A stretch of 35,664 nucleotides of DNA. Source: Micavibrio aeruginosavorus (GTDB taxonomy: Bacteria > Pseudomonadota > Alphaproteobacteria > UBA9219). Below the pieces are notes generated by a model. It did not search any database. It was not told the DNA's origin and was given only the letters and a program-made list of their open reading frames with translations. The number at the start of each line of letters is the position of its first letter. Position 1 is the first letter of the stretch. Below are positions 1 to 21,011 of this stretch, in pieces. The stretch is taken from assembly GCA_020720905.1 (NCBI GenBank), contig DYNT01000001.1, forward strand, positions 1 to 35,664, read 5' to 3'. A program made the translations under genes and the position numbers.

Positions 1-1337
1 GGATCAAAAATCAAGCCGCTGTCCAAGCCGTTATTGATGTTGTGGTGTCCCTTTCTACTTTGTTTAGCTCCCTTTTTGACGAGACGGAGGAGAAGCTGGC
101 CTCTGATACGCGTGCGCTTTTATATGGGCAGATGGTTAACGCTAAGGTTGAAGAAAGCCTGACGCAGGCGCGCATTGATGGGGGGACGCTCAATACTTTT
201 CGTCGTGCCTCGGTTGCTACCACCATGCAGGGAACGACTCCTAAAAACGAATACTTATGCAAAAAGATTGCGGCGCATCAGCTGACGACAACGACGCAGG
301 ACTTTGAAAAAGAAGTGTCGCGTATGGCCGCCGAGGCGATCAGCAATCGCTATCGTTGTCCAACGTGTGATGGTTGGGGGCCTGATTATGTTGGCAAAGA
401 ATCGGCGCGGCGGTGCGCGCAAGGGTATGGCAATCCCTCGATTGATGGTGCCAAGGCGAGCTGTGAGAAAAAGCTGAGTGATGGGCGAAGCCTTGCTGAC
501 GCCGATCTTGCGCCGCTTGATGAGGGGCAGAGTTATCAGATGCCCAAAATGATTTCCAAGGCCTATACCGATAGTGTAACGGGAGCCAGTCTGGTTGTCA
601 GCGTCCCTGATCCTCAAAATGATCAACAGCGTTTATGGGGTGCGGCTTGGGATAACATCTTCTTGTTGGCGGGGCCACGCCCTACGCCTCGGCATGGGAA
701 AGGGATGAAGACGCCTGTTGGCAAGGTGGAGCGCACCCTGTTCAATCATTGTTTGTCGAGCCAAAACGCCCTTATCAAACAATGCACGGATTTGTTGGCT
801 TATTACACGCGGCCCAATTGTGAAGAAATGCCAGCCTTGTGCGAGGCGCAACAAGAAAAATGTTTGGCTGCGACGAAGATTATTGATTTAGCTCCCTTCG
901 ATCAATGTGAAAAAGGGCTTAGTGCTTACGAAGAGGAGAAGATAAACCAACTTCTTTGCAACAGTACACAACATTATACGGACATGGTTCATGCGGGTTC
1001 GACTTATGATCTTTTGACGGGGTCTAGTGATCTTTGTGACGCCTCTTGGTCACGATGGCGCACGGTTGTGGACAAAAAACACGCGCATTGCACGGCAGCC
1101 ATCGATGGGCTGCAACGGTTAGCATCCTGTTGGGGAGCCGTTGATTCGCTTGGTCGTGGCTCTGCGGCGCTTGAGGATGGGCTGGCAGGCGATGGTTCTT
1201 CCGTTGTGCGCGCTTCGCAGCCGGCGATGGGTGTGCCCATTTATAAGGCCAAATGGTCAACACAGCCGCGACAAAAGGATGCGCTGTCATTCGATGCGGC
1301 AGAACGCGATCCCTTATTGCAAGCTGTTAGCCCATGA
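1..1337 (+). CDS. Secreted Cys-rich paralog A, unknown family (5' end outside window; reading frame starts at nt 3)
   Basis: The frame is open from nt 3 with no upstream stop. The GTG at 42 in the ORF track is probably not the true start. It aligns along its length with the three downstream paralogs, sharing motifs PKNEYLC, QNxxQRxW...LAGPRPT, C(T/A)DLLAY(Y/H)TRP and GLSAY. It carries a C-terminal tail with VVRASQP. Confidence 0.8.
   Translation, partial: IKNQAAVQAVIDVVVSLSTLFSSLFDETEEKLASDTRALLYGQMVNAKVEESLTQARIDGGTLNTFRRASVATTMQGTTPKNEYLCKKIAAHQLTTTTQDFEKEVSRMAAEAISNRYRCPTCDGWGPDYVGKESARRCAQGYGNPSIDGAKASCEKKLSDGRSLADADLAPLDEGQSYQMPKMISKAYTDSVTGASLVVSVPDPQNDQQRLWGAAWDNIFLLAGPRPTPRHGKGMKTPVGKVERTLFNHCLSSQNALIKQCTDLLAYYTRPNCEEMPALCEAQQEKCLAATKIIDLAPFDQCEKGLSAYEEEKINQLLCNSTQHYTDMVHAGSTYDLLTGSSDLCDASWSRWRTVVDKKHAHCTAAIDGLQRLASCWGAVDSLGRGSAALEDGLAGDGSSVVRASQPAMGVPIYKAKWSTQPRQKDALSFDAAERDPLLQAVSP
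254..874 (+). repeat. Copy 1 of 621-bp near-identical block shared by paralogs A and B
   Basis: Offset by 1558 nt to 1812-2432. I found one mismatch (C271 vs T1829). The forward protein and both antisense ORF translations in the track are identical apart from that site. Flanking sequence diverges abruptly. Confidence 0.9.
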
Positions 1338-1356
1338 GGCGGTTGGTGGAAAAAAG

Positions 1357-2736
1357 ATGAAAACACTATCAACTCTTTTTTTAAGAGCGATTCTCGTTGT
1401 TATCGTTGCCTTGAGCTCTGGGCTGATGAACCTTGGCATAGATCCTTATGCGGGAGGTCTTGTCCTAACGGGTCCTCGCGCAAGCGCTGCGGAAGTTATT
1501 TTTAATCCCTTTAAATTGGCGGCCAATCTGGTGCAAGCGGCTGCGGAAAAAGCGAAAGAGGTTATAGAAGAAAGCAATCTGGCAAGTATTATTAGTGGCA
1601 TGACAGGGGTTTATGATCTTCTTGTGGATCAATTTCAAGAATTGAATGATGCCATGAAAGAGAGCTCTCAAGCAAAAAATGCGGCTTTACAGGTTGATGC
1701 GGTGATGGAGATAACCTCTATGCAAGCCCAAATAGATGCGGCAACATCCAATACTCTTTTGAAGGCGCAGTTGGACACCTTGTCTCAAGGGGGGGCTCCT
1801 AAAGGTGAGTATTTATGCAAAAAGATTGTGGCGCATCAGCTGACGACAACGACGCAGGACTTTGAAAAAGAAGTGTCGCGTATGGCCGCCGAGGCGATCA
1901 GCAATCGCTATCGTTGTCCAACGTGTGATGGTTGGGGGCCTGATTATGTTGGCAAAGAATCGGCGCGGCGGTGCGCGCAAGGGTATGGCAATCCCTCGAT
2001 TGATGGTGCCAAGGCGAGCTGTGAGAAAAAGCTGAGTGATGGGCGAAGCCTTGCTGACGCCGATCTTGCGCCGCTTGATGAGGGGCAGAGTTATCAGATG
2101 CCCAAAATGATTTCCAAGGCCTATACCGATAGTGTAACGGGAGCCAGTCTGGTTGTCAGCGTCCCTGATCCTCAAAATGATCAACAGCGTTTATGGGGTG
2201 CGGCTTGGGATAACATCTTCTTGTTGGCGGGGCCACGCCCTACGCCTCGGCATGGGAAAGGGATGAAGACGCCTGTTGGCAAGGTGGAGCGCACCCTGTT
2301 CAATCATTGTTTGTCGAGCCAAAACGCCCTTATCAAACAATGCACGGATTTGTTGGCTTATTACACGCGGCCCAATTGTGAAGAAATGCCAGCCTTGTGC
2401 GAGGCGCAACAAGAAAAATGTTTGGCTGCGACAGGATTTTTGGACTTGGCGCCTTACAAAGATTGCGGAAAGAATGGCGCGATCACGGCTTGGCAGGGAT
2501 TAAGCGCCCATGAGACAGAACAAATTAATCAATACTTGTGTAAGAGCGAGCAGAATAACAATAATTTACTGCAGGAGGGGGCTCAGCACAAAGATTTGAT
2601 TTTGGATATGGCTTATCTTTGTTCCTTGTCCGAGCAGGCGTGGAAGGAATCGGTGGCGCTTAAACATGAAAATTATCGCGCAGCAACGCAAGGATTGCAA
2701 AAGCTTTCCACCTGTTGGGCTGCTGTTGGGAAATAA
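1357..2736 (+). CDS. Secreted Cys-rich paralog B, unknown family
   Basis: ATG at 1357 lies 6 nt after GGTGGA and encodes MKTLSTLFLRAILVVIVALSS, a signal-like hydrophobic N-terminus. The longer 1141 start overlaps the tail of paralog A and was rejected. The central 207 aa are identical to paralog A except one residue. There are about 14 Cys. The protein ends right after CWAAVGK. Confidence 0.85.
   Translation: MKTLSTLFLRAILVVIVALSSGLMNLGIDPYAGGLVLTGPRASAAEVIFNPFKLAANLVQAAAEKAKEVIEESNLASIISGMTGVYDLLVDQFQELNDAMKESSQAKNAALQVDAVMEITSMQAQIDAATSNTLLKAQLDTLSQGGAPKGEYLCKKIVAHQLTTTTQDFEKEVSRMAAEAISNRYRCPTCDGWGPDYVGKESARRCAQGYGNPSIDGAKASCEKKLSDGRSLADADLAPLDEGQSYQMPKMISKAYTDSVTGASLVVSVPDPQNDQQRLWGAAWDNIFLLAGPRPTPRHGKGMKTPVGKVERTLFNHCLSSQNALIKQCTDLLAYYTRPNCEEMPALCEAQQEKCLAATGFLDLAPYKDCGKNGAITAWQGLSAHETEQINQYLCKSEQNNNNLLQEGAQHKDLILDMAYLCSLSEQAWKESVALKHENYRAATQGLQKLSTCWAAVGK
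1812..2432 (+). repeat. Copy 2 of 621-bp near-identical block shared by paralogs A and B
   Basis: See copy 1. Confidence 0.9.
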
Positions 2737-2804: not shown

Positions 2805-4352
2805 ATGATAATGCGAGCTATCAAAAAGACGATGTTGGTTCTTTCTCTGATCCTTTGTTTTTTAATGGGGGGAAGTTTTCTGAATCCAACGCCTGCTTAC
2901 GCCGGAAGCCCTGTCGTTACGGATCCTGCTAATTTTGCTGCGACCATGATGGAGTGGGGCGAGCGCTTGGCGGCGATGGCGAAAAAGAGCGCTCTTCTTG
3001 GACAGATTATTTCTTTGATCACATCCGTTCATAACATTATCAATAGCGGCTTTTCTGCCATGACGGATTCAACAAAACAGGATACAAAGCTTAATATCGC
3101 AGGACAACAGGGGCTTGCGCTTATCAAACAGGAAGGCGCGCAGGCTTGGATTGATAGCGATACGTCGGATGCTCTTCTTGCGGCGCAACTTAAGCTTGTG
3201 GCCGATCACGTTGCGCCTAAAAATGAGTATTTATGCAAGGCGACGTTGTTGAATCAATTAACGGGAACAACGGAAGATTTTGAGCGTGGCGTTGCCAGAT
3301 TGGTGCTTAAGGCTATTGAAAGTACAGGCCGTGGCCCAATGGATGATTATGATGGCCCCCAATATGCTTTCGATGAAGAAACCTTGCGCGGCGCAGCAGG
3401 CTTTGGCAATAGTGTTGTGGATGGTTATGATGCGGCTTATAGCGATACCAGCACGACTGTTGGGCCGACCAAGCGGCTTTTTATTGATGCCGATTTGATG
3501 CCTTTTTCGATGGATGGCGCTGTGCCGCTTGAATTGCCACAGTTTACAGCCAAGGCGGTTAATCTTCCCAGCGGAACAATCGTCTCGGCAAGCGTTCCTA
3601 CGCCCCAAAATGAAAATCAAAGAATGTGGCTTGCGGGACTCTACTATTGTTTTCAGCTTGCAGGGCCTCGCCCAACGGCCTCTTGGGGGGACAAAATGAC
3701 GACTCCCCAAGGTCTTGTCGAAAGGGCTCGTTTTGATCATGCCTTAGCCATGCAGAGCGCGATGATTAAGCCTTGTGCGGATTTGTTAGCTTATCATACG
3801 CGTCCGGATTCAAAGGATCTTGCTTCAGCGCCCCTTATCAAGGCGCAACATGAAAGTTGTGCTGCGGCGAAGGGGTATATAAGCGACGAGGATATGAAGG
3901 AAAAATTCAGCAATTGTTTGTCCGATGATTTTAAGGGAATGAGCGCTTATCAGGCAGAGCTTTTAAGCCATTCGATTTGTAAAAGTGAACACCACGCTAT
4001 CTCTTTAAGGCAAGCAGGTGCTACGCCGCCTGAATTGATTAATGACACGATCAAATGTTCTGCGGCGTGGAATACATGGCAGGCTAAGGTTTCTGCTAAA
4101 CAAGGATCTTTGGTTGATGTCGTCGCAGGGATTCAAGAAACCAAAGGCAATTGGGGGGGGATAGGCAATAACATTGCGGGATTGGCGGAACAGGAGAAGG
4201 ACAAGGCTCATCGTGTTGTTAGGGCTTCAAAGCCCAGTCATCAGCCTCCCGTGGCGCAAGACATTAAAGCGCAGAAAATCCCGTTGCTTCCTCGGCATGG
4301 AATTCCCTTTGCGGCGGATGAAGTGACATGGCCTATGGCCGTGTCGCAATAA
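2805..4352 (+). CDS. Secreted Cys-rich paralog C, unknown family
   Basis: A strong RBS (AGGAGGA) precedes the ATG at 2805 (or 2811). The signal peptide ends AYA|GSP. It shares motifs with A, B and D: PKNEYLC, PQNENQRMW..QLAGPRPT, CADLLAYHTRPD, GMSAYQAE. The C-terminal tail carries VVRASKP. Confidence 0.85.
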   Translation: MIMRAIKKTMLVLSLILCFLMGGSFLNPTPAYAGSPVVTDPANFAATMMEWGERLAAMAKKSALLGQIISLITSVHNIINSGFSAMTDSTKQDTKLNIAGQQGLALIKQEGAQAWIDSDTSDALLAAQLKLVADHVAPKNEYLCKATLLNQLTGTTEDFERGVARLVLKAIESTGRGPMDDYDGPQYAFDEETLRGAAGFGNSVVDGYDAAYSDTSTTVGPTKRLFIDADLMPFSMDGAVPLELPQFTAKAVNLPSGTIVSASVPTPQNENQRMWLAGLYYCFQLAGPRPTASWGDKMTTPQGLVERARFDHALAMQSAMIKPCADLLAYHTRPDSKDLASAPLIKAQHESCAAAKGYISDEDMKEKFSNCLSDDFKGMSAYQAELLSHSICKSEHHAISLRQAGATPPELINDTIKCSAAWNTWQAKVSAKQGSLVDVVAGIQETKGNWGGIGNNIAGLAEQEKDKAHRVVRASKPSHQPPVAQDIKAQKIPLLPRHGIPFAADEVTWPMAVSQ

Positions 4353-4370: not shown

Positions 4371-5783
4371 ATGAGCGTTTGGCCTGCAATAAAAAAGTCC
4401 TTGCAAAGAGAGGATAGAAAAAGAAAGAAGCCGCGTAAGAGGCTGTCTTTCTTTTTTGTGCTAACGGTCATTTTTTTTGTTTTTAGCATAATGTGGCCGC
4501 TGCAGAGCTATGCCATTAAGAATGGGGATACGCCCGTTAGTGCCCAAGAAAATGCTTATACAACCGCAAGTGTTTTACAGGAATTTGCCGATTTTTCGAC
4601 GGAAAATGGATCGTGGGCGTCAATTAAGGCGGGATTCACAACGGTCATGACCACCTTTCAGACTCTTATGAAAAAGTTCTGGGACTTTCATGGCCAATCG
4701 ACTGTTGGGAAATTAACGGCACAAAGGCTTCAGGCGACCATAACGACAGAAGCGTGGCAAGCTGCGTTGGATGCCAGTACCGAGAACGCCGTTCTTGAAG
4801 AAAAAATGAAACATTTAGCGGATCATATCATGCCACCTGCTTCAGAACAGTTTCTGTGCAATCTTATTCTTGCGCGGCAAGGCGTGCCCGTTATGACCGA
4901 GTTTGCGCGTATTATTTCCAAGGTTGTGGCCAAGGGTATTGATGCCCGTTCCCGTAGCAGGGGGAGCGATGGCAATGGTCCGCAATATGCCATGGATGCG
5001 TGGAACATCAAGTGCGGCAAGTATGGCGCTGACAGACCTAAAACAGGGAATGCTATTGATGGTGTGCCAAAGGCATGCCGTGCAGAAGAAACGGCACCTG
5101 CCATTGGCTATGCTGGTGGCGATGTGAGCATGGACACGTTAAGCCGAGAAAAGGTTTATACTGTGCCGCCTGTTAAAGAAGAGACCATGATGATTAATGG
5201 AAAGATGGAAACGGTTGCAGACTTTTTTCCTGATAAAAACAGTAAAGACTATGAAGCGCATCGGCAATGGCTTATGGCGCGGCAATATTGTTATAATCTT
5301 GCTGGCCCGCGCCTTACCCCTCCGCGTGACGAAGATCTGGATACGCCCGCAGGAAAGGCCAATTTCACCTTGTTTACAAGCTGCCTATCACGGCAAAGCG
5401 CTTTTGTTAAAGCTTGCACGGATCGTTTGGGCAAGTTAACGCGACCCGATTGTTCCACTGATGACTTTAAGGAGTTTTGTGACGCCTCTATTCAAGCGTG
5501 CGATGCAGCGCGTGAGTCTCAAATTGTGCTGCCTCCTGAATTTAATAACTGTCAAAGTGGGCTAAGTTTGTATCAGGCGGAATATCTTTCAAACGCTCTT
5601 TGTGGCTCAACGCGTCGCCTTCAAGCTGATACACATGGTGGGGAGCAGGATCATAAAAAGGTCAGTACGCTGTTAATGTGCCAAATCATGAGGGAAGTGT
5701 CAGAGAAACGACAGCAGGAAGAAGATAAGGCGTTTGTAAGAGCCGTGCAGGGGATGCAGAATATGAAGGGGTGCTGGGACTAG
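4371..5783 (+). CDS. Secreted Cys-rich paralog D (most divergent), unknown family
   Basis: The N-terminus is basic, followed by a hydrophobic stretch ending QSYA|I, which looks like a signal peptide. It retains EQFLC, NLAGPRLT, CTDRLGKLTRPDC, GLSLYQAEYL and a terminal GCWD. There are about 13 Cys. Confidence 0.8.
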   Translation: MSVWPAIKKSLQREDRKRKKPRKRLSFFFVLTVIFFVFSIMWPLQSYAIKNGDTPVSAQENAYTTASVLQEFADFSTENGSWASIKAGFTTVMTTFQTLMKKFWDFHGQSTVGKLTAQRLQATITTEAWQAALDASTENAVLEEKMKHLADHIMPPASEQFLCNLILARQGVPVMTEFARIISKVVAKGIDARSRSRGSDGNGPQYAMDAWNIKCGKYGADRPKTGNAIDGVPKACRAEETAPAIGYAGGDVSMDTLSREKVYTVPPVKEETMMINGKMETVADFFPDKNSKDYEAHRQWLMARQYCYNLAGPRLTPPRDEDLDTPAGKANFTLFTSCLSRQSAFVKACTDRLGKLTRPDCSTDDFKEFCDASIQACDAARESQIVLPPEFNNCQSGLSLYQAEYLSNALCGSTRRLQADTHGGEQDHKKVSTLLMCQIMREVSEKRQQEEDKAFVRAVQGMQNMKGCWD

Positions 5784-5904: not shown

Positions 5905-6747
5905 ATGGTTACGATAACATCAAATGAATCGGAAAAAGACGTAAGTGCCCATCTTCAAACGATGGTGGCTTCTTTTCGTCAAGTCGGTCTGCCTCTTTTG
6001 CAGGCGATGGTTGACGTTTCTGGAAGCGGCGCGGCTGAGGCAGAAAGTGTCCAAGAGCAGCGCATGGGGGATTTAATTGAGTGTGCCGTTCTTTTGAGCC
6101 GTGAACTGGCCAAAGAAATGGGCGCTGATGAGGGGGCTCTTGCCCCATCCGTGCGGTGGAATTTGGCCGGATCGGCAAGTCAGATCGTAGCGGCCAACTA
6201 TCAAGCGACGGGACAGGTTCTATCGGCCGAGGCTATAGCGCGGCTTGTTCATATTGCTACGACACTTCAGGAAAAATTTAAAAGTCAGATCCCTGTTGGC
6301 GGAGAAACACTTCCCAATACCGTTGCGACGTTTCGCGCTAAGATGATGGAGGGGTTTGTTCCTGTCATTGGCGCTGTTGCCCAATATGCTTTTGGTCGCG
6401 CCGAACATGACTTATTGGCCGAAATTTCAGAAAGGCTTGTCAAGACAGCCGAGCAAGTGACGCGAACGCTTGCCGCACCTGGTTCGTCTCCTGAACAGTG
6501 GCGTCTTTTGTGTTGGACCATTCTGCGGGCGGCGGGACAGATTTATACGGAAAGTCATTATGCTGAGGCGGATCGTTTGAACGCCATGGCTCCCGATGAT
6601 CAAGCGGACTACTTTGCGCAGCATAGCTCAGCTGTTCCTATGACACAGGTTTGGCAAGCTTTTAATCAGCGCATGGCGATGCTTGCGACGTTGTCCTCTT
6701 ATTTAGAGGTTCCCCCTTCTGCTCATTTAGAAGATCAAGGGTGGTGA
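5905..6747 (+). CDS. Hypothetical cytoplasmic protein (no signal peptide, acidic, Ala/Leu-rich)
   Basis: A 280-aa ORF fills the gap between paralog D and the transglycosylase gene. It is co-directional and ends 4 nt before the next start. I recognise no motif. The RBS is weak. Confidence 0.55.
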   Translation: MVTITSNESEKDVSAHLQTMVASFRQVGLPLLQAMVDVSGSGAAEAESVQEQRMGDLIECAVLLSRELAKEMGADEGALAPSVRWNLAGSASQIVAANYQATGQVLSAEAIARLVHIATTLQEKFKSQIPVGGETLPNTVATFRAKMMEGFVPVIGAVAQYAFGRAEHDLLAEISERLVKTAEQVTRTLAAPGSSPEQWRLLCWTILRAAGQIYTESHYAEADRLNAMAPDDQADYFAQHSSAVPMTQVWQAFNQRMAMLATLSSYLEVPPSAHLEDQGW

Positions 6748-6751
6748 TCTT

Positions 6752-7207
6752 ATGCTAACCGCTCAAGCCCTTGCCGCTTGTATGATGCTTGCTTCGCAAA
6801 CGTATCATGTTCCGCCAGCTGTGATGGTGGGCATTATGCACGTTGAGGGGGGGCGCGTTGGGCAACAGGTTGGTCCCAACAGCAACGGAACGTATGATCT
6901 GGGCCCCATGCAGGTTAATACACGGTGGATCCCTCAATTGGCTCACGCTTGGGGCGTTGATAAAAAAGTTGCGCATCGGCTTCTTCGTGACGATGGCTGC
7001 GTCAATGTTCGTGTTGCCGCTTGGATCCTTGGCCAAAAAATAAAAGAAGCAGGGTCTCTTTATGGGGGCATTGCTTACTATCATTCGGCAACGCCTGGCA
7101 TTGGACCTCGTTATGCTGCCAAGGTTATTGCCGTGATGGAGCTCAAGGGGCTTATCAAACGGGGCTATGCAAAAACGAAGAATCAGGCTTACTATGCACA
7201 GCGTTGA
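6752..7207 (+). CDS. Lytic transglycosylase, SLT domain (VirB1 / TrbN / R64 PilT-like specialised peptidoglycan hydrolase)
   Basis: Motifs IMHVEGGR (candidate catalytic Glu), NSNGTYDLGPMQVN and AYYHS match the pattern of secretion- and pilus-associated SLT enzymes. The size is 151 aa. Confidence 0.85.
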   Translation: MLTAQALAACMMLASQTYHVPPAVMVGIMHVEGGRVGQQVGPNSNGTYDLGPMQVNTRWIPQLAHAWGVDKKVAHRLLRDDGCVNVRVAAWILGQKIKEAGSLYGGIAYYHSATPGIGPRYAAKVIAVMELKGLIKRGYAKTKNQAYYAQR

Positions 7208-8549: not shown

Positions 8550-8661
8550 ATAATTCGTGGAAGAGCCTATAATCAGGGAGCCTGATTATAGTAAAACTAA
8601 GAACGGTCTTCCTTCTGCTGAAGGGAGGCGTCAAGGCGTTATCTTTATGATGGTGGATGTG

Positions 8662-14543: not shown

Positions 14544-15805
14544 CCGCTGGCCTTGTTACCATTGGTCGCAAACAATATGCCAGTGGCTTGTATTGGGAAA
14601 ACAGTCCCAGTGGCCGCATATCGCAGGCTGCGAAAGAGGCCGCCAAGCAACCGGGGACGCAAGCCGATTATTTTGCGGCACGATCAGGGAATAAACAGGG
14701 GCGAGTTCCTCAATTCGGGTTAGTTCAAGCTGTTGAAGGGTTCCGTTCTGGTCTTCCTTCTTTAGCAGGATGTTTGGCTAATAAGCAGCCAGGTTCTTGG
14801 ATTGGTGCCTTTCGTTTGCGCGAAGGAACGGCTGTCGTCGTTGTGCGGGATGATCTTATTGTCCCCGATGGTGACCGCTTCTTTCAAGATGAAACAGAGG
14901 CTCGTGATCATCTTTATCAGGAAATGGCGATTGGTGGATTTCAGCGCATTTATGCGCCAGAGCCATGGGGCGTTCCTGGTGCCGATACGATGCCCATCAC
15001 CCTTTTGTTGGATGAAAGTTCGGACGTTCGCCTTCATGGGGTTGCCCTGTCTCAACAGGCCAAGACAGGGATTGTGATTGGGGGGATGCTTTTGCTCCTT
15101 GTCATTGGTGTTGGCTGGTATATTCAAGATCAAAAGGAGAAAGAAGAGGTGCTTCGTCTCCAGCAGCTTGCGGCGATGGAGCGCATGAAGGCTGAGGCGG
15201 CCAAGCTCCTTCCTCTTCAGCAACAAGTGGTTTATCCACCACCAGAACGCAAATGGGAAAAACAGCCCAAATCGTTAGAAGTGATCGCGGCGTGTCAAAA
15301 AGCGCTTGAGCAGGTTGTCGTCGGTATCAGTGGATGGAACATCTCAAGCATAAAGTGTTCGCCAAAAAGCTTAGAGATTTCTTGGTCTCGAACGGGTGGT
15401 TTTTCAAATCCGCCACCTAAAACCGTTGTTTCTGTTTCGGGCGAGCAAGCTTCTGGAAGTGTTGCTTTTGAGCCGTTGTCGCCTCGTGGTGATGAATATC
15501 TTGTTAATCCTGATGTTATAACAGGGCGTTATTTAAGCCAGAATTGGACAGGGACTTTGCGGCGTGAGCCGGATGATCCTCCTCCTCCTCCTCCTCCTGG
15601 CTATAAAGGGGAGTGGAATCCTCCACCAGCCCCATGGGTTAAGCGTTCTTTTACGTTTACTGTTCCAGTATTGCCGTGGACACTACCGGACTTCTTAATG
15701 GATATCCCAGGAGTCATCGTGGATTCACTGGCTCTTACGGGCGGTGGTGTTGGAAGCAAAAACAGTTGGAAGGTTGAAGGAGTGATTTATGAAAATCGCC
15801 GTTAA
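14540..15805 (+). CDS. pilO: PilO-like (R64 PilO / PilO2 family) type IVb pilus accessory protein, bitopic membrane protein
   Basis: The N-terminus TIGRKQYASGLYWE resembles the PilO2 family signature. There is a central TM helix (GIVIGGMLLLLVIGVGWYI). The ATGA start/stop overlap with pilN suggests translational coupling. It contains a poly-Pro tract. Confidence 0.75.
   Translation: MTAGLVTIGRKQYASGLYWENSPSGRISQAAKEAAKQPGTQADYFAARSGNKQGRVPQFGLVQAVEGFRSGLPSLAGCLANKQPGSWIGAFRLREGTAVVVVRDDLIVPDGDRFFQDETEARDHLYQEMAIGGFQRIYAPEPWGVPGADTMPITLLLDESSDVRLHGVALSQQAKTGIVIGGMLLLLVIGVGWYIQDQKEKEEVLRLQQLAAMERMKAEAAKLLPLQQQVVYPPPERKWEKQPKSLEVIAACQKALEQVVVGISGWNISSIKCSPKSLEISWSRTGGFSNPPPKTVVSVSGEQASGSVAFEPLSPRGDEYLVNPDVITGRYLSQNWTGTLRREPDDPPPPPPPGYKGEWNPPPAPWVKRSFTFTVPVLPWTLPDFLMDIPGVIVDSLALTGGGVGSKNSWKVEGVIYENRR
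15578..15598 (+). repeat. (CCT)7 trinucleotide repeat encoding Pro7 inside pilO-like gene
   Basis: Direct reading of 15578-15598 gives cct x7. The protein reads PDDPPPPPPPGY. Confidence 0.95.
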
Positions 15806-16574
15806 AACATCTCTTGCCGCCATGGCGTTGTCTATGGGGTTGGCTTCTGGGTTTTCGTCCTTCTCTTGGGCGGAAGGAAGGCTTGCTGCGCCGCCATCCA
15901 ATCCTGTAAGCCAACAGGAAGCCTCCTCAGTCAAGGAGGTTTTGGATTCGATTAAGGTTCCAGAAAGCAGCAGCAAGGCGACAAAAAAGGAAAAATCTGA
16001 AAAAGACGATAAGGACGATGATTCGATGGAGTCGCCTAAAGTTCCTGATTCCGTGAAGGGCGTGGTTAAGCGTTTAAATACAGCGACAAAGGACGTCACC
16101 ATTGAAGACCTCAATGCGGCGCGGGAAGCGGTTGTGAAATTAGATGTCTTAATTGACATTGAAAAAAGGCTGAATGATTTGACAACGTTGCGTCAAGAAA
16201 GAGAAGAGAAGGAAGGCTCGCTCTCTGGGGCTTTCCCTGCTGGGGCTTTGGGTGGCGCTGCTATGCCTCCCCCTCTTTTAGCGTCCTCTGCCGGTTCTTC
16301 TGCACAGCCAGCTTCTCCCTCTGTGTCCATGCTTCCTGTTGTTATGCCAGAAAAAGACATTGATGTTACAAAGATTATGGGGGCGTCTGGCCGTTATGTG
16401 GCATCGATTAAAATGGCAGAAGGCGAAGAGCGACAGGTTCGGGCTGGCGATAAACTGCCTGATGGAACCGTCATTGATTCCGTTTCTCGTCAGGGGGTTA
16501 CGATTTTATCTCCTAGTAAGAAAAAAAGCACAATCCAAGTCAAAGACATCAGCGCTGTTTTTGGTGGTCGGTAA
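15789..16574 (+). CDS. pilP: PilP-like type IVb pilus biogenesis protein
   Basis: It has a signal peptide and an acidic/Lys-rich linker. The C-terminal region YVASIKMAEGEERQVRAGDKLPDGTVIDSVSRQGVTIL resembles the PilP beta-domain. It overlaps the pilO end by 17 nt. Confidence 0.7.
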   Translation: MKIAVKTSLAAMALSMGLASGFSSFSWAEGRLAAPPSNPVSQQEASSVKEVLDSIKVPESSSKATKKEKSEKDDKDDDSMESPKVPDSVKGVVKRLNTATKDVTIEDLNAAREAVVKLDVLIDIEKRLNDLTTLRQEREEKEGSLSGAFPAGALGGAAMPPPLLASSAGSSAQPASPSVSMLPVVMPEKDIDVTKIMGASGRYVASIKMAEGEERQVRAGDKLPDGTVIDSVSRQGVTILSPSKKKSTIQVKDISAVFGGR

Positions 16575-16692: not shown

Positions 16693-18669
16693 GTGCTGGA
16701 TATTCTAGAAGAAATAAAAGAAGCCATAAGCTCCGCATTTCAAGGAAAAGCGGCTGGTGGGCGTGCGTCCGAAATTCCGCCATCAAAGCTGACCAATGTT
16801 GCCCCGCCGACAATCAGAGCTAAGGCAAAAACGTCAGGAGGGATGACGCAATCCTCAAGTGTTTCTGAAAAAGCATCGACGGAAACCTCATCTCAAGAAA
16901 AGGATAAGCAAGAGAGTTCTTCGGATGGCGCGATCTCTGCTGAAAAGCCTGGTGCGATGATTGAACGTCCAGCGGAAATAATCATTGAGGATGAACGTAG
17001 TCTTGCAATTGCTGGGGGCTTAGAGTTTTCAGGCGATGTTCTGACGGTTGAGGGCGGGAAGCTTAAAATTCCTGATGAATCGCGCAATTTATGCGTGTTG
17101 TTTGAAAATGGGATGTGGCTGGTTAGCGCCTCGCACCGGTTGTCTCCGTTGGTGACATCGGTGGCGCAGATGGCGGCGCGACATGGGCATCAGATTAATC
17201 CAGCACGCTATGTAACGCCCAATATCATTCGTCAAGCTTATCTCTATGCTGATAGAAAGGCGTCGGTTTCGCGGCTTGATGATAACGCTGTGCGCCGCCG
17301 TATCGTTGATACGTTGCAAAAGGCTGTTGAAGCTGGAGCAAATGACGTTCATATCGAGGCCAGCGATGGGCGCACCCGCATCGAATTCCGTATTGATGGC
17401 GCCTTGCGCTTGTGGGAGACGTGGACGCAAAAAGAGGGCGAGCTGATGTTGTCGTCCGTTTACTCCCATTCGGTGGGACAATCGGGCGCGACTGCAAATT
17501 GGCAAGAACCTCAAGCGGCCATGTTGACGTCCACCTCCACGGGGCCTGATGCGCTGGCGTTGCCTAAGGGCGTTATCTCGGTTCGCTGTCAGTGGGTTCC
17601 GTTGTCGGATGGGGGGCGCTATTTGGATATGCGCCTTCAATATGACTCGGCGCATTTGTTTGGCGAAAACTTTATTATGGCCGACGTGGACTCCCTTGGG
17701 TTTTCACAAGAACAGCTTAAGGTCGTCCAAAGCCTTCGGCAAGCGCCCGGCGGCATGCGCGTGTTTGCGGGGCCTGTTAATCAGGGGAAGACTACAACGC
17801 TGCGTGTGACGCTTAATCGCCGCATGGCGGAAACCAATATGCAGTTAAACTGTTTGTTGGTTGAAGATCCTCCTGAAGGCGGCATCGTTGGGGCGCGGCA
17901 GGTTGGTGTTTCTTCTTCGGTCAAAGACGAGCAGCGCGAAAAATCTTTTGTTGAAATTATGCGCTGCGCGCTGCGCCTTGACCCTGACATTGTCATGCTT
18001 GGTGAGGTTCGCGACATTCAAACGGCCAAATTCGCCTTTCGTTTGGCGTTAACGGGGCGTCAAGTTTATACGACGACGCACGTTTATGCTGCGCTTGCGG
18101 TTCCGCAGCGCTTGCGCGACATTGGCATGGAACCTTACCTTGTCTATGATCATCATTTGCTTCGCGGTATGTTTTGTCAAAGGTTGCTGCGTGGCATGTG
18201 TTCCCATTGCCGAATTCCGTTGGCTGATGCGCACTCTGAACTGGGGCCGCATTATAAAGACTTGGCCCGTCGTGTTCGGGCAGGGCTTGCCATTATGGAT
18301 TCCTCACGCAAGGGAGGCAGCGTTGGCGTTTATGACCGTTTGTCCGAGCCCGACTTGCGCAATGTTTATATTGCCAATCCAGAGGGTTGTTCCCATTGTT
18401 TCCGTGGTCGCGCAGGAAGAACCATTTGCGCAGAAGTGATCGAAACAGATCAGAAAATCATGGAGCTTTTGCAAGATAACCGCATGGAAGAAGCGCGGGA
18501 TTATTGGCTGTCGCCAACGGGCATGAATGGCGTTACCATGTTGTGGCATTCTTTGGAAAAAATCAGACGTGGCGAAGTTTCTCCTGATGATGCCGAATTT
18601 GAAGTTGGCATTATGGCCACTGAGAAAGAAGTGATCGAAGTTGAACAAAGACTTGGGGTGATGCCATGA
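16693..18669 (+). CDS. pilQ: PilQ-like GspE-family assembly ATPase of type IVb pilus
   Basis: Walker A is GPVNQGKTTT, Walker B-like is DIVMLGEVRD, and the His-box region is QVYTTTHV. A tetracysteine motif reads CSHC...CSHC..GR..ICAEV. The start is uncertain: it is a GTG at 16693, preceding an approximately 130-aa Ser/Lys-rich N-terminal extension. Confidence 0.85.
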   Translation: MLDILEEIKEAISSAFQGKAAGGRASEIPPSKLTNVAPPTIRAKAKTSGGMTQSSSVSEKASTETSSQEKDKQESSSDGAISAEKPGAMIERPAEIIIEDERSLAIAGGLEFSGDVLTVEGGKLKIPDESRNLCVLFENGMWLVSASHRLSPLVTSVAQMAARHGHQINPARYVTPNIIRQAYLYADRKASVSRLDDNAVRRRIVDTLQKAVEAGANDVHIEASDGRTRIEFRIDGALRLWETWTQKEGELMLSSVYSHSVGQSGATANWQEPQAAMLTSTSTGPDALALPKGVISVRCQWVPLSDGGRYLDMRLQYDSAHLFGENFIMADVDSLGFSQEQLKVVQSLRQAPGGMRVFAGPVNQGKTTTLRVTLNRRMAETNMQLNCLLVEDPPEGGIVGARQVGVSSSVKDEQREKSFVEIMRCALRLDPDIVMLGEVRDIQTAKFAFRLALTGRQVYTTTHVYAALAVPQRLRDIGMEPYLVYDHHLLRGMFCQRLLRGMCSHCRIPLADAHSELGPHYKDLARRVRAGLAIMDSSRKGGSVGVYDRLSEPDLRNVYIANPEGCSHCFRGRAGRTICAEVIETDQKIMELLQDNRMEEARDYWLSPTGMNGVTMLWHSLEKIRRGEVSPDDAEFEVGIMATEKEVIEVEQRLGVMP

Positions 18670-19775
18670 GCTTGAATGAGATAGCGATTGATACAGAGGC
18701 GCTTAGTCGCCGATGGGCGCAGCTTCAGTTTAAAAATAATCGCAAGCAACGCTTTCGTGTTTATCGTAAGCTAGAGGGCATGCTTCGCATGAACGAAGCG
18801 CTTTCACGCTCTCTTGACCGCCTTTATCAAAATGCTTCTGAAATGGGGAAGCATCCAGATCGTCCGGCCGCCGTGGCTTTAAGGGAATGGTTTTTGAAAG
18901 ATCGTGAGGGGCTGGGGCTTTCCGATGCGATGGAGGGATGGGTTCCTGATTCAGAACTTTATATGATTCGTGCTGGCGAAGAGTCGGGCACGATGGCCAA
19001 GGCTTTCGCGTCGATCCAAACCATCGGGGCGCGGGCGCGTGAGATGCGCGGTGCTGTGACGTATGCCGTGGCCTATCCAGGCTTTATGATTATCTTGGTT
19101 TCTTTTGTTTTATGGATGTTTGGCGTTAATTTGATTCAAAACATGCGTAAAACAGCCCCTCCCAGTGTTATGGCGGCGATGGGCGGCGTTGCGACAGTTT
19201 CGGATTTTATTGCCAATTGGGGAATATGGGTTTTAGTGGGCATTGCGGCAACATCGATGTTTATTACGGTGACCCTGCCTGTTTGGAAGGGACCCTTGCG
19301 CGCCAAGTTTGATATGTGGCCGCCATGGTCGTGGTATCGCGTTTTGCAGGGCAGTGGATTTTTGTTGGGGCTTTCCGCTCTTTTAGGGTCGCAGGTTCCT
19401 TTGAAAAGAGCCTTAGAGATTTTGGAGGATCAAGCCAAACCATGGTTGCGTGAGCGCGTGGGATCGGCGCGGCAAGAGGTTTTGCGTGGGCGCAATTTGG
19501 GGGAAGCGCTTAGAACAGGGCGTTATAATTTTCCTGATCCGGGCGTCGCGGTTGATCTTGAAATCTTGTCAGAACGCGCCGATGTTGGCAGCGTTATTGA
19601 GCAAGTGACGGACGAATGGATTACGGATCAAATCGAAGTGCTTAAAGGGCAGGCGGCTATTACGCGTAATCTTGGGTTAGCCGTGGTAGGCGGAACAATC
19701 GCGTGGGCGATGCAGTCCGTTTTTGCGGTCGTGACCGAGGTTTCAAAAGGCTCAGGCGGCATGAGCGGCATGTAA
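18666..19775 (+). CDS. pilR: PilR-like GspF-family inner-membrane platform protein
   Basis: The polytopic architecture is of the T2SS-F type. The ATGA overlap with pilQ suggests coupling. The 369-aa size and position match R64 PilR. Confidence 0.85.
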   Translation: MSLNEIAIDTEALSRRWAQLQFKNNRKQRFRVYRKLEGMLRMNEALSRSLDRLYQNASEMGKHPDRPAAVALREWFLKDREGLGLSDAMEGWVPDSELYMIRAGEESGTMAKAFASIQTIGARAREMRGAVTYAVAYPGFMIILVSFVLWMFGVNLIQNMRKTAPPSVMAAMGGVATVSDFIANWGIWVLVGIAATSMFITVTLPVWKGPLRAKFDMWPPWSWYRVLQGSGFLLGLSALLGSQVPLKRALEILEDQAKPWLRERVGSARQEVLRGRNLGEALRTGRYNFPDPGVAVDLEILSERADVGSVIEQVTDEWITDQIEVLKGQAAITRNLGLAVVGGTIAWAMQSVFAVVTEVSKGSGGMSGM

Positions 19776-19792
19776 GGAAAAAGGATAGTACG

Positions 19793-20419
19793 ATGATCAA
19801 GAAAAATCGCGGCATGACGCTTACGGAGCTTGCCATTGTTTTGGGCGCGATGGGGCTTGTCATGGGGGCTGTCTGGGTCATTGTTGGGACGGTATGGGAT
19901 GGCTATCGGTTTCAAAAAATGAGCCAGCAGATCCAAACCGTTACGCGTTCTTTGCAGGATTATTATGGGAACATCGGTGGGATTTATAGTGTACTCGGCC
20001 CTCCCCCTGTTCCGTATGCCGATAATACGGATATAACGGCTATTGTGGACGATGATGATCGGCGTCTTATTCCCATAGAAATGCGCCTGAACAAAAGCGT
20101 GGAGGGATCAGGCCTTCGCCATGCTCTGGGTGGCGTAATGACTGTGCAAAGCATTGCTGCTGGCGGCGGTTTTCGTTTACGGCTGCAAGGCTTGAATCAA
20201 GACGCGTGCATTAAGCTTGTTATGCAGTTTCCCGTGCTTTTGCCTGAGTTGGGTGTGACGTTTATGGGCACGGTTGCAGACAGTACAAATATTGATCTAA
20301 GCAATTTTGTTAATCCAAGCAGCGGGGATGCTCTTCCTCTTTCTCTTCAGAACGCCACGCAGTGGTGCAACGTTCCAACCAATAACGAGGTGCGCTTTGA
20401 GTTCAGAGTTCGTATGTAA
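19793..20419 (+). CDS. pilS: PilS-like type IVb major prepilin
   Basis: RBS AAGGAAAAAGGA precedes the ATG at 19793. The class III signal peptide is MIKKNRG|MTLTELAIVLGAMGLVMG, with Gly at -1 and Glu at +5. Confidence 0.85.
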   Translation: MIKKNRGMTLTELAIVLGAMGLVMGAVWVIVGTVWDGYRFQKMSQQIQTVTRSLQDYYGNIGGIYSVLGPPPVPYADNTDITAIVDDDDRRLIPIEMRLNKSVEGSGLRHALGGVMTVQSIAAGGGFRLRLQGLNQDACIKLVMQFPVLLPELGVTFMGTVADSTNIDLSNFVNPSSGDALPLSLQNATQWCNVPTNNEVRFEFRVRM

Positions 20420-21011
20420 ACGCGCAGGGTTCAGCCTTCTTGAATTGGCCATTGTTTTTGCCATCATTGGCATCGTTTTGGCAGCGCTGTGGGGCGTTGT
20501 CGGTATGGTGCGCGAAAACATCAAACGTGAAGAGGCGGTGGCGCAAATGACGGCCATCGTCGGCAAGATCCGTGACTATTACGCGGGGCGTGCTTGCGCC
20601 TCAACAAATTTCGGTTGTCCAGTCATTGATACGGATTTAACGAATTATTTATTTAGGCAAAGTGTGTTGCTTCCTGAACAACTGCGTGATCGCGTCGCCG
20701 TTCTTTTGGTAGCGGATCATCCGTGGGGATCTGTCGGCGCAAATGGCGTTTTATTAGCGGGTGGCGGCCTTATCGTGCGTTCTGTCGGTGATGGGCGCGA
20801 TTCCTTTCAGGTTGAGCTTCTGGGGCTTAAAGGATCCAGCTGTGTGGCGTTGGCCAGCGCCTTATCAAGCGCGGGTGCGCCAAAGGGGCTGACGGGCATG
20901 ACCATTAATGGAGGTGCTGGCCTAGGGCTTCCCGTTACGCCAGAGGCGGCGGCGGTAGAGTGTGTTGCTGCAACCAACAGGATAAACAGCGTTTATAGCC
21001 TTAGGCTTTAG
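20397..21011 (+). CDS. PilV-like minor prepilin (start uncertain; TTG 20397 or ATG 20328)
   Basis: The class III signal is ...CKRAG|FSLLELAIVFAIIGIVLAAL, with Gly at -1 and Glu at +5. The reading frame overlaps the pilS 3' end. No in-frame ATG lies close to the leader; a TTG sits at 20397. Confidence 0.7.
   Translation: MSSEFVCKRAGFSLLELAIVFAIIGIVLAALWGVVGMVRENIKREEAVAQMTAIVGKIRDYYAGRACASTNFGCPVIDTDLTNYLFRQSVLLPEQLRDRVAVLLVADHPWGSVGANGVLLAGGGLIVRSVGDGRDSFQVELLGLKGSSCVALASALSSAGAPKGLTGMTINGGAGLGLPVTPEAAAVECVAATNRINSVYSLRL

What the first reader, a model, noticed from the sequence alone, without database searches (positions are those of the whole stretch)
1..21011. Hybrid locus: a DotD-DotC-DotB-IcmT module joined to an R64-type type IVb pilus module, with none of the rest of a T4BSS visible
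Seen: about 20 co-directional genes with tiny gaps or overlaps. After a transglycosylase, a DsbC-like protein and a small membrane protein, the order is dotD, dotC, dotB, icmT. A 364-bp gap follows, then pilL, pilN, pilO, pilP, pilQ, pilR, pilS and a pilV-like gene.

Established: dotDCB is one operon in Legionella. In IncI1 plasmids such as R64, the homologues traH-I-J-K sit inside a roughly 20-gene tra block. That block is separate from the pilI-V thin-pilus operon. A functional T4BSS also needs DotG/DotH/DotF, DotO (IcmB), the DotL coupling protein and DotA. None of these, and no relaxase, nikAB/oriT, rci or shufflon, lies in these 21 kb.

Inference: one possibility is a minimal chimeric envelope machine. 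In it, the DotC/DotD outer-membrane lipoprotein pair would work with the PilN secretin and the type IVb assembly platform. The alternative is an unusually rearranged IncI-like element whose remaining genes lie upstream of nt 1.
Basis: partly seen in the sequence, partly recalled or inferred. Interest (0 to 1): 0.8.

Follow-up and report, generated by a model that had tools for sequence, protein, structure and literature searches.

The report
Chromosomal DotDCB-IcmT plus type IVb pilus cluster
A group of uncultured Micavibrio-like bacteria keeps four Dot/Icm secretion genes next to a complete type IVb pilus operon in the chromosome, under strong selection and with no other secretion-system or plasmid-transfer genes nearby, so this may be a new hybrid cell-surface machine rather than a piece of a plasmid.

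Summary
Profile searches identify DotD, DotC, DotB, IcmT, then PilL, N, O, P, Q, R and two prepilins. All are co-directional and many overlap.

In 8 related contigs of 15-824 kb, the left flank is housekeeping DNA, for example groESL, purMN or flagellar genes. The window's right flank is chromosomal (folate ligase, Tad pilus, motAB, fabI).

The cluster is a syntenic, vertically inherited locus in a large environmental clade. One relative is titled Micavibrio sp. I found 50 distinct DotC loci, and pil follows icmT in 24 of 28 informative ones.

The dot genes are as constrained as the pilus genes, with dN/dS of 0.035-0.058. No DotA, G, H, I or O, relaxase or integrase was detected in 694 kb of related loci. 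A coupling-protein gene sits upstream in three.

The juxtaposition itself is not new. The conjugative plasmid pND6-2 carries dotDCB-icmT directly upstream of pilL-V, with the rest of its T4BSS in other operons.

My best reading, at about 0.4, is a pilus-centred hybrid apparatus that has co-opted DotD, DotC, DotB and IcmT. The main rival, at about 0.35, is that the remaining Dot/Icm genes lie elsewhere in the chromosome. I could not test that.

The parts
1..1337 (+). Cys-rich secreted paralog 1, with its N-terminus cut by the window edge
   Evidence: No in-frame stop in nt 1-41. It is 55-63% identical to full-length 513-521-aa paralogs in L006 and L008. No Pfam or NCBIfam hit.
1351..2736 (+). 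Cys-rich secreted paralog 2, with a signal peptide
   Evidence: It shares a 648-nt tract at 98.6% identity with paralog 1 (238-885 vs 1796-2442), which indicates gene conversion.
2805..4352 (+). Cys-rich secreted paralog 3, with a signal peptide ending AYA|G
   Evidence: Only 10 homologues found in 5.8 billion proteins. AF2 core pLDDT is 70-89, with no significant PDB fold match. Five Cys columns are invariant.
4371..5783 (+). Cys-rich secreted paralog 4
   Evidence: dN/dS against L011 is 0.17.
5905..6747 (+). Clade-specific 280-aa all-alpha protein with no signal peptide ('u280')
   Evidence: 323 homologues, all hypothetical, with no Pfam domain; several have the same longest-contig length as DotC-clade hits. 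AF2 pLDDT 84.8, nine helices, no natural PDB match. Present upstream of dotD in 25 of 26 loci.
6752..7207 (+). Small lytic transglycosylase (SLT, TrbN/IagB-like)
   Evidence: PF01464, and NF010463 at 2.3e-22. Present in 26 of 26 loci. dN/dS 0.036.
7263..8252 (+). DsbG/DsbC-like periplasmic thiol:disulfide isomerase
   Evidence: NF008657 at 7e-23, and Thioredoxin_2. Present in 23 of 26 loci.
8265..8549 (+). 94-aa membrane protein ('u94')
   Evidence: The translation shows a C-terminal hydrophobic hairpin. Present in 24 of 26 loci.
8557..9159 (+). DotD/TraH lipoprotein (ORF from 8557; likely start near 8668; lipobox LVSGC)
   Evidence: PF16816, E 5.5e-26. NF033882 at 93 bits. Relatives are 157-171 aa. 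dN/dS 0.050.
9137..10009 (+). DotC/TraI, with a Sec signal peptide and no lipobox Cys
   Evidence: PF16932, E 2e-70. PDB DotC 6x62, E 1.2e-38. dN/dS 0.049. N-terminal sequences compared.
9988..11250 (+). DotB/TraJ hexameric ATPase
   Evidence: PDB DotB 6geb, E 2.5e-103. TIGR02524 at 397 bits. 88-95% identical in relatives. dN/dS 0.035.
11291..11557 (+). IcmT/TraK small inner-membrane protein
   Evidence: NF038220, 79.6 bits against a cut-off of 40. dN/dS 0.058.
11558..11921 (.). Intergenic gap between the dot and pil modules, with a weak terminator-like hairpin at 11563-11582
   Evidence: The pattern scan as a whole did not differ from shuffled sequence.
11922..12929 (+). PilL, with a C-terminal TcpQ domain
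   Evidence: PF10671, E 1e-16. Collinear with the pND6-2 TcpQ-family gene.
12942..14543 (+). PilN-type lipoprotein secretin (lipobox LLGC)
   Evidence: Secretin plus Secretin_N_2. TIGR02520 at 277.6 bits, against a cut-off of 287.65. 28-32% identical to BfpB and PilN.
14540..15805 (+). PilO (PilO2 family)
   Evidence: PF06864, E 1.3e-32, full length.
15789..16574 (+). PilP
   Evidence: TIGR03021, 39.2 bits, above 34.65.
16693..18669 (+). PilQ assembly ATPase (T2SSE/GspE family)
   Evidence: PF00437, E 1.4e-52. dN/dS 0.046.
18666..19775 (+). PilR platform protein (T2SSF)
   Evidence: PF00482. dN/dS 0.028.
19793..20419 (+). PilS-like prepilin (MIKKNRG|MTLTE)
   Evidence: N_methyl motif. Sequence. 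dN/dS 0.23.
20412..21011 (+). Second prepilin (VCKRAG|FSLLE). It is PilV-like only by position: about 199 aa and no shufflon.
   Evidence: N_methyl at 3.8e-7 and a weak PilS_N hit. No sfx-like repeats and no rci.
21160..35664 (.). Right-hand chromosomal flank, not part of the cluster. It holds a CpxP/Spy-like gene, 5-FTHF cyclo-ligase, LMW-PTP, a Tad/Flp pilus locus on the - strand, motAB, fabI and DUF2155.
   Evidence: The same flank occurs in the Micavibrio sp. MAG (L011).

Best explanation
**What it is.** The region is the larger part of a roughly 23-25 kb chromosomal gene cluster. The cluster is inherited vertically in a large clade of uncultured Micavibrio-like Alphaproteobacteria. It most likely descends from the contiguous dotDCB-icmT + pilL-V segment of an MPF_I conjugation system of the pND6-2/IncI type, and it is no longer part of a mobile element.

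**Proposed working model (inferred, not shown).** The cluster builds a type IVb pilus-centred envelope apparatus.
- PilQ and PilR, with PilO and PilP, polymerise the two pilins through the PilN lipoprotein secretin. PilL (TcpQ-like) stabilises the secretin.
- The retained Dot parts are exactly those with type II secretion or type IV pilus affinities. DotD has a secretin-N0-like fold. DotC and DotD act like a pilotin. DotB is a PilT-like ATPase. In this model DotD and DotC form a periplasmic or outer-membrane collar on the secretin, or pilot it into place. DotB, with IcmT in the inner membrane, supplies a second motor for retraction or export.
- The SLT enzyme opens the peptidoglycan.
- The DsbC/G-like isomerase folds the fast-evolving, multi-copy Cys-rich secreted proteins. 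These proteins are the variable adhesins or cargo used for cell-cell (prey or host) contact.
For: **Shown**
- All gene assignments hold.
- The right flank is chromosomal.
- In relatives the left flank is housekeeping DNA, in contigs of up to 824 kb.
- The closest relative with both flanks conserved is titled Micavibrio sp..
- The DotC clade is large. There are 1935 hits at E<1e-30, and the top 120 are 63-89% identical. The best plasmid DotC is about 41% identical.
- There are 50 distinct loci. Pil follows icmT in 24 of 28. The upstream genes SLT, u280, u94 and Dsb are present in 23 to 26 of 26 loci.
- Against L011, at dS of about 0.8-0.9, dN/dS is 0.050 for DotD, 0.049 for DotC, 0.035 for DotB and 0.058 for IcmT. 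That equals PilN, PilQ and PilR (0.028-0.061) and is lower than the flanking housekeeping genes (0.086-0.105).
- tblastn found no DotA, G, H, I or O, MobF or integrase in 59 loci totalling 694 kb.
- The Cys-rich paralogs evolve fast (dN/dS 0.17; 26-72% identity to their best-matching copy in relatives). Copy number ranges from 1 to 5, and one pair shows a gene-conversion tract.

**From the literature**
- DotD resembles the secretin N0 domain, DotC and DotD behave like a pilotin, and DotB is close to PilT (PMC2951367).
- dotDCB-icmT is an independent operon in pPAD8/pND6-2 (PMC11826091). It sits directly upstream of pilL-V there.
Against: - No physical or genetic link between the Dot proteins and the pilus machine was tested.
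- In every characterised T4BSS, DotC and DotD work with DotH and DotG, and DotB docks on DotO.
- T4BSS genes are commonly split over several loci (Legionella; pPAD8). Local absence therefore does not show that the genome lacks them.
- In 4 of 28 loci the dot module is followed by housekeeping genes instead of pil. One more distant locus has pilL-Q without dot genes upstream. The two modules are therefore separable.
- Three loci carry a T4CP-like gene upstream. This hints at further T4SS parts in some lineages.
- Single-query tblastn could miss very divergent DotG, DotH or DotI.
- A predatory lifestyle is inferred only from the title of a MAG record. Cultured M. aeruginosavorus ARL-13 shows no such cluster next to its Tad locus.
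Confidence: 0.4

Rival explanations
1. **Split but complete T4BSS.** The window shows only one region of a full Dot/Icm-type system, consisting of the dotDCB-icmT operon and its thin-pilus operon as in pND6-2/IncI. The other roughly 12-20 genes (dotO, G, H, I, L, M, A and so on) lie at one or more distant chromosomal sites. The system would translocate effectors or DNA in the usual T4BSS way, with the pilus as an accessory for attachment.
For: - pPAD8/pND6-2 plasmids carry four separately transcribed dot/icm operons, including dotDCB-icmT.
- In pND6-2, DotI, DotH and DotG lie about 12 kb away on the other strand.
- Legionella keeps dotDCB apart from the icm region (established knowledge).
- Strong purifying selection on all four Dot genes is what would be expected if their normal partners exist.
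- A T4CP-like gene (TraG-D_C domain) sits co-directionally upstream in L038, L049 and L053.
Against: - No other Dot/Icm gene appears within 10 kb of dotC in any of 50 distinct loci, in 694 kb examined, including contigs of 0.2-0.8 Mb.
- The constant neighbours of the module are clade-specific unknown genes (u280, u94, Cys-rich proteins), not T4BSS genes.
- The only genome paper on the genus reports no type IV secretion system (PMC3189940). That strain does not show this cluster next to its Tad locus, so the point is weak.
Confidence: 0.35
2. **Two independent devices side by side.** The pil operon makes an ordinary type IVb pilus on its own. Separately, u280-SLT-Dsb-u94-DotD-DotC-DotB-IcmT, together with the upstream Cys-rich, SLT-domain and Ivy genes, form a novel reduced export device that does not use the pilus machine. 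The two are adjacent only because their plasmid ancestor had them adjacent.
For: - The dot module keeps its upstream partners in 23 to 26 of 26 loci.
- It lacks a pil neighbour in L043, L044 and L051, where SBP, truB, ruvCAB and tolQR follow instead.
- L058 has the pil genes rearranged upstream, and L010 has pil without dot.
- A 364-nt gap with a terminator-like hairpin separates the modules in the window.
Against: - Without PilN there is no recognisable outer-membrane channel in the dot module, because DotH and DotG are absent.
- Adjacency is kept in 24 of 28 loci across deep divergence, down to about 45% PilN identity.
- The two modules are under equal selective constraint.
Confidence: 0.15
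3. **Ordinary or decaying IncI-like element.** The region is part of an integrated conjugative element or plasmid remnant. It is either still mobile, with its other genes just outside the window, or it is eroding.
For: The gene order is collinear with pND6-2 at 23-41% identity. G+C is about 0.50, against 0.54-0.575 in the neighbouring Tad locus.
Against: - Both flanks are housekeeping genes, and the position is syntenic among closer relatives (L006/L011, L007, L008).
- There is no integrase, relaxase, tRNA or att-like repeat.
- dN/dS of 0.03-0.06 rules out decay.
- Within-clade identity is 63-95%, against at most 41% to any plasmid.
Confidence: 0.03

Closest known systems
pND6-2 / pPAD8 family of Pseudomonas conjugative plasmids (MPF_I, dot/icm T4BSS plus pil operon)
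   Same: The order is identical: dotD-dotC-dotB-icmT, then pilL(TcpQ)-pilN-pilO-pilP-pilQ-pilR-pilS. In pPAD8, dotDCB-icmT is an independently transcribed operon (PMC11826091).
   Different: - The plasmids also carry icmLKEGCJB, icmP-icmO, dotA, a replicon and partition genes, and they conjugate.
- They have parM and one further gene between icmT and pilL, a PilT-like ATPase, and a long shufflon-type PilV.
- Protein identity to the window is only 23-41%.
- They lack u280, u94, the Dsb gene and the Cys-rich paralogs upstream of dotD.
IncI1 (R64-type) transfer region
   Same: It has traH-I-J-K (DotD, C, B and IcmT homologues) and a pilL-N-O-P-Q-R-S type IVb thin-pilus operon on the same strand and as neighbours.
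   Different: - The order is reversed: pilI-V, shufflon/rci, traE-G, then traHIJK.
- It is followed by traL-Y, including DotI, H, G, O and A homologues.
- It has PilM, the PilT transglycosylase, the PilU peptidase, the shufflon and a MOBP relaxase.
- DotC identity to the window is about 33%.
Legionella pneumophila Dot/Icm T4BSS (dotDCB operon of region I)
   Same: The window carries orthologues of DotD, DotC, DotB and IcmT. By NCBIfam score, the window's DotB is closer to Dot/Icm DotB than to plasmid TraJ. The window's DotC matches the cryo-EM DotC chain.
   Different: - Legionella has about 25 further dot/icm genes and no linked type IVb pilus.
- In Legionella icmT is in region II (established knowledge).
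- Most DotC proteins of this clade lack a lipobox.
Stand-alone type IVb pili (BFP of EPEC, TCP of Vibrio cholerae)
   Same: They share a lipoprotein secretin of the BfpB/PilN type (28-32% identity), a TcpQ-domain partner, a GspE-type ATPase, a GspF-type platform protein and prepilins.
   Different: They have no Dot/Icm genes. BFP has its own retraction ATPase, BfpF. The pilins in the window have short leader peptides of 6-7 aa.

Membership tests
Type IVB secretion system (Dot/Icm, MPF_I) | DotC/TraI and DotD/TraH outer-membrane pair | tested here: met
   PF16932 at 2e-70 and PF16816 at 5.5e-26. PDB DotC match.
Type IVB secretion system (Dot/Icm, MPF_I) | DotB/TraJ ATPase and IcmT/TraK | tested here: met
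   6geb DotB at 2.5e-103. TIGR02524 at 397 bits, which is the best hit but below the equivalog cut-off of 463. NF038220 above its cut-off.
Type IVB secretion system (Dot/Icm, MPF_I) | VirB4-like ATPase DotO/IcmB (TraU) | tested here: not met
   No such ORF in the window. No tblastn hit in 59 related loci totalling 694 kb. The rest of the genome could not be searched.
Type IVB secretion system (Dot/Icm, MPF_I) | Core proteins DotG, DotH and DotI (TraO, N, M) and DotA/TraY | tested here: not met
   Absent from the window and from all related loci by Pfam or tblastn. Single-sequence queries are of limited sensitivity, and genome-wide absence was not testable.
Type IVB secretion system (Dot/Icm, MPF_I) | Coupling protein (DotL/T4CP) | tested here: inconclusive
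   None in the window, nor in the upstream DNA of its closest relatives. A TraG-D_C-domain gene lies upstream of Wzy_C in L038, L049 and L053.
Conjugative plasmid or ICE of the IncI type | Relaxase/oriT, integrase or replicon, and insertion-site signatures | tested here: not met
   No relaxase or integrase. No tRNA. Housekeeping flanks and conserved synteny among closer relatives.
R64-type type IVb (thin) pilus | PilL, PilN secretin, PilO, PilP, PilQ ATPase, PilR platform and PilS prepilin | tested here: met
   PilN scores 277.6 against a cut-off of 287.65. PilP is above its cut-off. Collinear with pND6-2 and IncI1.
R64-type type IVb (thin) pilus | PilV tip adhesin with shufflon and Rci recombinase | tested here: not met
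   The second prepilin is only about 199 aa. There is no sfx-type repeat family and no recombinase.
R64-type type IVb (thin) pilus | Dedicated prepilin peptidase (PilU), PilM, PilK and the PilT transglycosylase inside the operon | tested here: not met
   None lies between pilL and 21011. An SLT gene lies in the dot module, and a Peptidase_A24 gene lies in the neighbouring Tad locus at 31336-32055.

The most novel reading that the evidence does not exclude
The cluster may encode a self-sufficient hybrid nanomachine. In it, a type IVb pilus platform and secretin work with DotD and DotC as a collar or pilotin, and with DotB and IcmT as a second motor. There would be no VirB4-like ATPase and no DotG/DotH channel. 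Micavibrio-like bacteria would use the machine to attach to other cells, or to deliver the variable Cys-rich proteins to them. Such a machine would also indicate that dotDCB-icmT is at heart a type IV pilus or type II secretion-derived module, as the DotD structure paper suspected, and that it can function outside a T4BSS.
Probability: 0.3. Interest if true: 0.85.

Novelty: new variant of a known kind. Interest (0 to 1): 0.62.

Why it matters
If the four Dot genes work with the pilus machine, this would be the first T4BSS subset shown to function outside a T4BSS. It would give a natural test of the old proposal that DotD, DotC and DotB are the secretin-like and PilT-like part of the system. 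It would also point to a candidate contact or predation apparatus in a widespread, uncultured group related to Micavibrio, whose attack mechanism is unknown.

If the remaining Dot/Icm genes are instead found elsewhere in the genome, the result is still a first record of a chromosomal Dot/Icm-type system with a thin pilus in this lineage. In either case the fast-evolving Cys-rich paralogs, the u280 protein, and the Ivy and SLT-domain pair are new candidates for function.

Tried and rejected
- **Fetching the window's own upstream DNA.** Exact-protein look-ups returned only short Logan contigs from SRR1560848. The 49.8-kb NCBI contig is not indexed.
- **First genome scan with ORF1.** It found nothing.
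- **Cys-rich family.** There was no Pfam, NCBIfam or plasmid hit. The AF2 model was of moderate quality (pLDDT 56.5, core 70-89) and Foldseek found no PDB match with E<0.2. The DotA-IcmX chain at rank 5 (E 0.62, probability 0.18) is not significant. A profile search against the PDB found nothing. hhalign against three unannotated proteins of the Methylocella plasmid T4BSS region (candidate TraW/TraX/TraP equivalents by position) found nothing.
- **u280.** The AF2 model is confident (pLDDT 84.8), but it matched only designed helical repeats.
- **Promoter and terminator scan.** Counts did not differ from shuffled sequence.
- **Rfam and tRNA scans.** Nothing was found.
- **Looking for the cluster in M. 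aeruginosavorus ARL-13 through the paper's gene table.** Nothing like it lies next to that strain's Tad locus. This says nothing about genomes that do have the cluster.
- **Chasing the T4CP upstream.** No indexed protein matched L038, L049 or L053. The nearest indexable relative, L067, has flagellar genes upstream instead.
- **R64 accession.** It is not in the plasmid collection. An IncI1 plasmid was used in its place.
- **Decay hypothesis.** Rejected on dN/dS.

Full report
**1. Observation**

The window has 20 co-directional ORFs between nt 1 and 21011.
- DotD: PF16816, 5.5e-26.
- DotC/TraI: PF16932, 2e-70. It also matches the cryo-EM DotC chain 6x62 at 1.2e-38.
- DotB: a T2SSE-family ATPase whose best solved relative is DotB 6geb at 2.5e-103, against PilT at 1.7e-46. 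Its best NCBIfam model is Dot/Icm DotB at 397 bits, ahead of TraJ at 239 and PilT at 228.
- IcmT/TraK: NF038220, 79.6 bits against a cut-off of 40.
- After a 364-nt gap come PilL (TcpQ domain), PilN (Secretin plus Secretin_N_2), PilO (PF06864), PilP (TIGR03021, above its cut-off), PilQ (T2SSE), PilR (T2SSF) and two prepilins.
- Upstream of dotD are an SLT/TrbN-like transglycosylase, a DsbG/C-like thioredoxin and a 94-aa membrane protein.
- Overlaps of 4-23 nt link dotD/C, dotC/B, pilN/O, pilO/P, pilQ/R and pilS/V.

It holds four paralogous Cys-rich proteins of about 460-515 aa with signal peptides and no known family. The first of them runs off the left edge of the window. These are followed by a conserved 280-aa all-alpha protein, 'u280'. 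There is no relaxase, rci, shufflon, tRNA or Rfam element.

**2. Surroundings**

To the right of 21011 the DNA is ordinary chromosome. It holds a CpxP/Spy-like gene, 5-formyl-THF cyclo-ligase, LMW phosphatase, a full Tad/Flp pilus locus, motAB, fabI and DUF2155.

The window's own upstream DNA could not be retrieved. Homologues of the Cys-rich protein and of DotC led to related contigs instead.
- In DYDA01000004.1 (97.6 kb, titled 'Micavibrio sp. isolate IMS_BF') the cluster has the same right flank as the window. Its left end reads groEL-groES, SpoU, Wzy_C, Ivy, a ~410-aa SLT-domain protein, a ~225-aa unknown and then the Cys-rich paralogs.
- The same layout recurs in a JGI contig, with purM-purN and SpoU on the left, and in a Logan contig that starts at the gene preceding Ivy, so no left flank is visible there.
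- It recurs in 824-kb and 627-kb contigs.
- It also recurs in a 219-kb contig where flagellin, FlbT and FlaF lie on the left.

The alternative that the rest of an IncI-like element lies just upstream is therefore not supported.

**3. How widespread and how constrained**

DotC has 1935 relatives at E<1e-30. The best 120 are all 63-89% identical and come from metagenomes and MAGs labelled Bdellovibrionales or Alphaproteobacteria bacterium. The best plasmid DotC is about 41% identical.

A metagenome scan with a clade profile gave 50 more loci. Together with the earlier loci there are 50 distinct DotC loci.
- Of 28 loci with at least 1.5 kb of sequence after icmT, 24 continue with pilL or pilN.
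- Of 26 loci with enough upstream sequence, SLT is present in 26, DotD in 26, u280 in 25, u94 in 24 and Dsb in 23.

In four loci housekeeping genes follow icmT: an SBP gene, truB, ruvCAB and tolQR. In L058 the pil genes are rearranged upstream, and the more distant L010 has pilL-Q with no dot genes upstream. The modules are therefore usually linked, but not always.

Against the Micavibrio sp. MAG (dS about 0.8-0.9), dN/dS values are as follows.

| Genes | dN/dS |
|---|---|
| DotD | 0.050 |
| DotC | 0.049 |
| DotB | 0.035 |
| IcmT | 0.058 |
| PilN, PilQ, PilR | 0.028-0.061 |
| Flanking housekeeping genes | 0.086-0.105 |
| Cys-rich paralogs | 0.17 |
| Pilins | 0.20-0.23 |

The dot genes are working genes, not relics.

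**4. Is anything else of a T4BSS nearby?**

I ran tblastn with DotA, DotI, DotH, DotG, DotO, T4CP, MobF and an integrase, taken from the Methylocella p2 and pND6-2 plasmids, against 59 loci totalling 694 kb. The only hit was a T4CP-like gene. It carries a TraG-D_C domain by Pfam and lies at the left edge of three loci (L038, L049, L053). It is co-directional with the cluster and separated from Wzy_C by glycosyltransferase genes. Its own upstream DNA could not be reached.

Whether DotO, DotG, DotH, DotL or DotA lie elsewhere in these genomes could not be tested. This is the main open point.

**5. Comparison with known systems**

The juxtaposition is not new in itself.
- Plasmid pND6-2 (MPF_I, shown to conjugate according to PMC11826091) carries dotD-dotC-dotB-icmT, two unrelated genes, and then pilL-N-O-P-Q-R-S-T-V. 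DotI, DotH and DotG lie elsewhere on the plasmid. This block is collinear with the window at 23-41% protein identity.
- In the sister plasmid pPAD8, dotDCB-icmT is one of four independently transcribed dot/icm operons.
- In an IncI1 plasmid the pil operon, the shufflon recombinase, traE-G, traHIJK and traL-Y follow one another on one strand. The pil and traHIJK genes are therefore neighbours there too, in the opposite order.

What is new here is the setting. The locus is chromosomal, syntenic and deeply conserved. It has its own accessory genes (u280, u94, Dsb, Cys-rich paralogs, Ivy plus an SLT-domain protein, Wzy_C) and no mobility genes.

**6. Mechanism**

The four retained Dot genes are the ones without VirB counterparts, and three of them have known ties to type II secretion and type IV pilus machines. 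According to PMC2951367:
- DotD has the fold of the secretin N0 domain.
- DotC and DotD act like pilotins for DotH.
- DotB groups with PilT.

This makes a pilus-centred hybrid plausible. PilN would be the channel, with PilL, DotD and DotC around it. PilQ would be the assembly motor, and DotB with IcmT a second motor. The Dsb enzyme would fold the variable Cys-rich proteins, which would serve as adhesins or cargo. None of this was tested, and I give it about 0.4.

The main rival is an ordinary T4BSS split over several chromosomal sites, at about 0.35. A third reading, two unrelated devices left side by side by ancestry, gets about 0.15. A decaying or still-mobile IncI-like element is effectively excluded.

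**7. Unknown proteins**

- The Cys-rich family has five invariant cysteine columns. Its AF2 model is of moderate quality and has no significant fold match.
- u280 gives a confident nine-helix model with no natural structural relative. It has 323 homologues, all unannotated.
- A ~500-aa protein in the T4CP-bearing loci aligns weakly but collinearly with the Cys-rich profile.

**8. Literature**

No paper in the searchable library links Micavibrio with a T4BSS. [quoted passage not shown] Its gene table shows no such cluster beside the Tad locus.

**Verdict**

This is a new variant of a known kind, and it is moderately to highly interesting pending a whole-genome check for the missing Dot/Icm genes.

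Noticed in passing
window 238-885 and 1796-2442: A 648-nt tract is 98.6% identical between Cys-rich paralogs 1 and 2, while the rest of the two genes is much more divergent. This points to recent gene conversion, or less likely an assembly artefact. The Logan assembly of the same sample breaks at this repeat.
   Followed up: partly
window 23456-32055 (- strand): A complete Tad/Flp pilus locus (TadC, TadB, CpaF, CpaE, CpaD, CpaC, CpaB and an A24 prepilin peptidase) lies about 2.4 kb from the end of the type IVb pilus operon. Its peptidase is the only prepilin peptidase in the window, so it may also process the PilS-like and PilV-like prepilins.
   Followed up: no
L038 1-1100, L049 3-1889, L053 2-1105: In one sub-clade a type IV coupling-protein-like gene (TraG-D_C domain, 24-34% identical to the Methylocella plasmid T4CP) lies co-directionally upstream of the cluster. 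It is followed by GT1 and GT25 glycosyltransferases and Wzy_C. What lies upstream of it could not be reached.
   Followed up: partly
L006 3128-6943; L012 1043-4989; L007 1956-5686: The conserved left end of the cluster, outside the window, holds a Wzy_C-domain protein (O-antigen-ligase or pilin-glycosylase-like), an Ivy-type lysozyme or transglycosylase inhibitor, and a ~400-aa secreted protein with an N-terminal SLT domain. The last two look like an enzyme and inhibitor pair.
   Followed up: partly
L010 1-14400; L043, L044, L051, L058: The modules can be uncoupled. L010 has pilL-N-O-P-Q preceded by an ABC-F ATPase and a 374-aa unknown, with no dot genes. L043, L044 and L051 have the dot module followed by truB, ruvCAB and tolQR. 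L058 has pilQ-pilR upstream of the dot module.
   Followed up: partly
window 9137-9260 and alignment A4: DotC in the window, and in most members of the clade, has an ordinary signal peptide and no lipobox cysteine. IncI1 TraI is annotated as a lipoprotein. A few clade members (P0055, P0081) do have a lipobox.
   Followed up: partly
window 1-21000 vs 23000-32000: G+C is about 0.46-0.53 in the cluster, against 0.54-0.575 in the neighbouring Tad locus. GC skew is positive throughout the window.
   Followed up: no
window 21160-22208: Two small secreted proteins sit between the pilus operon and the folate gene. One is a CpxP/Spy-like Metal_resist protein. The other is a His/Pro-rich 161-aa protein. 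Both are conserved in the same place in the Micavibrio sp. MAG. In L010 the Metal_resist and folate-ligase pair lies on the other side of the pil genes.
   Followed up: no
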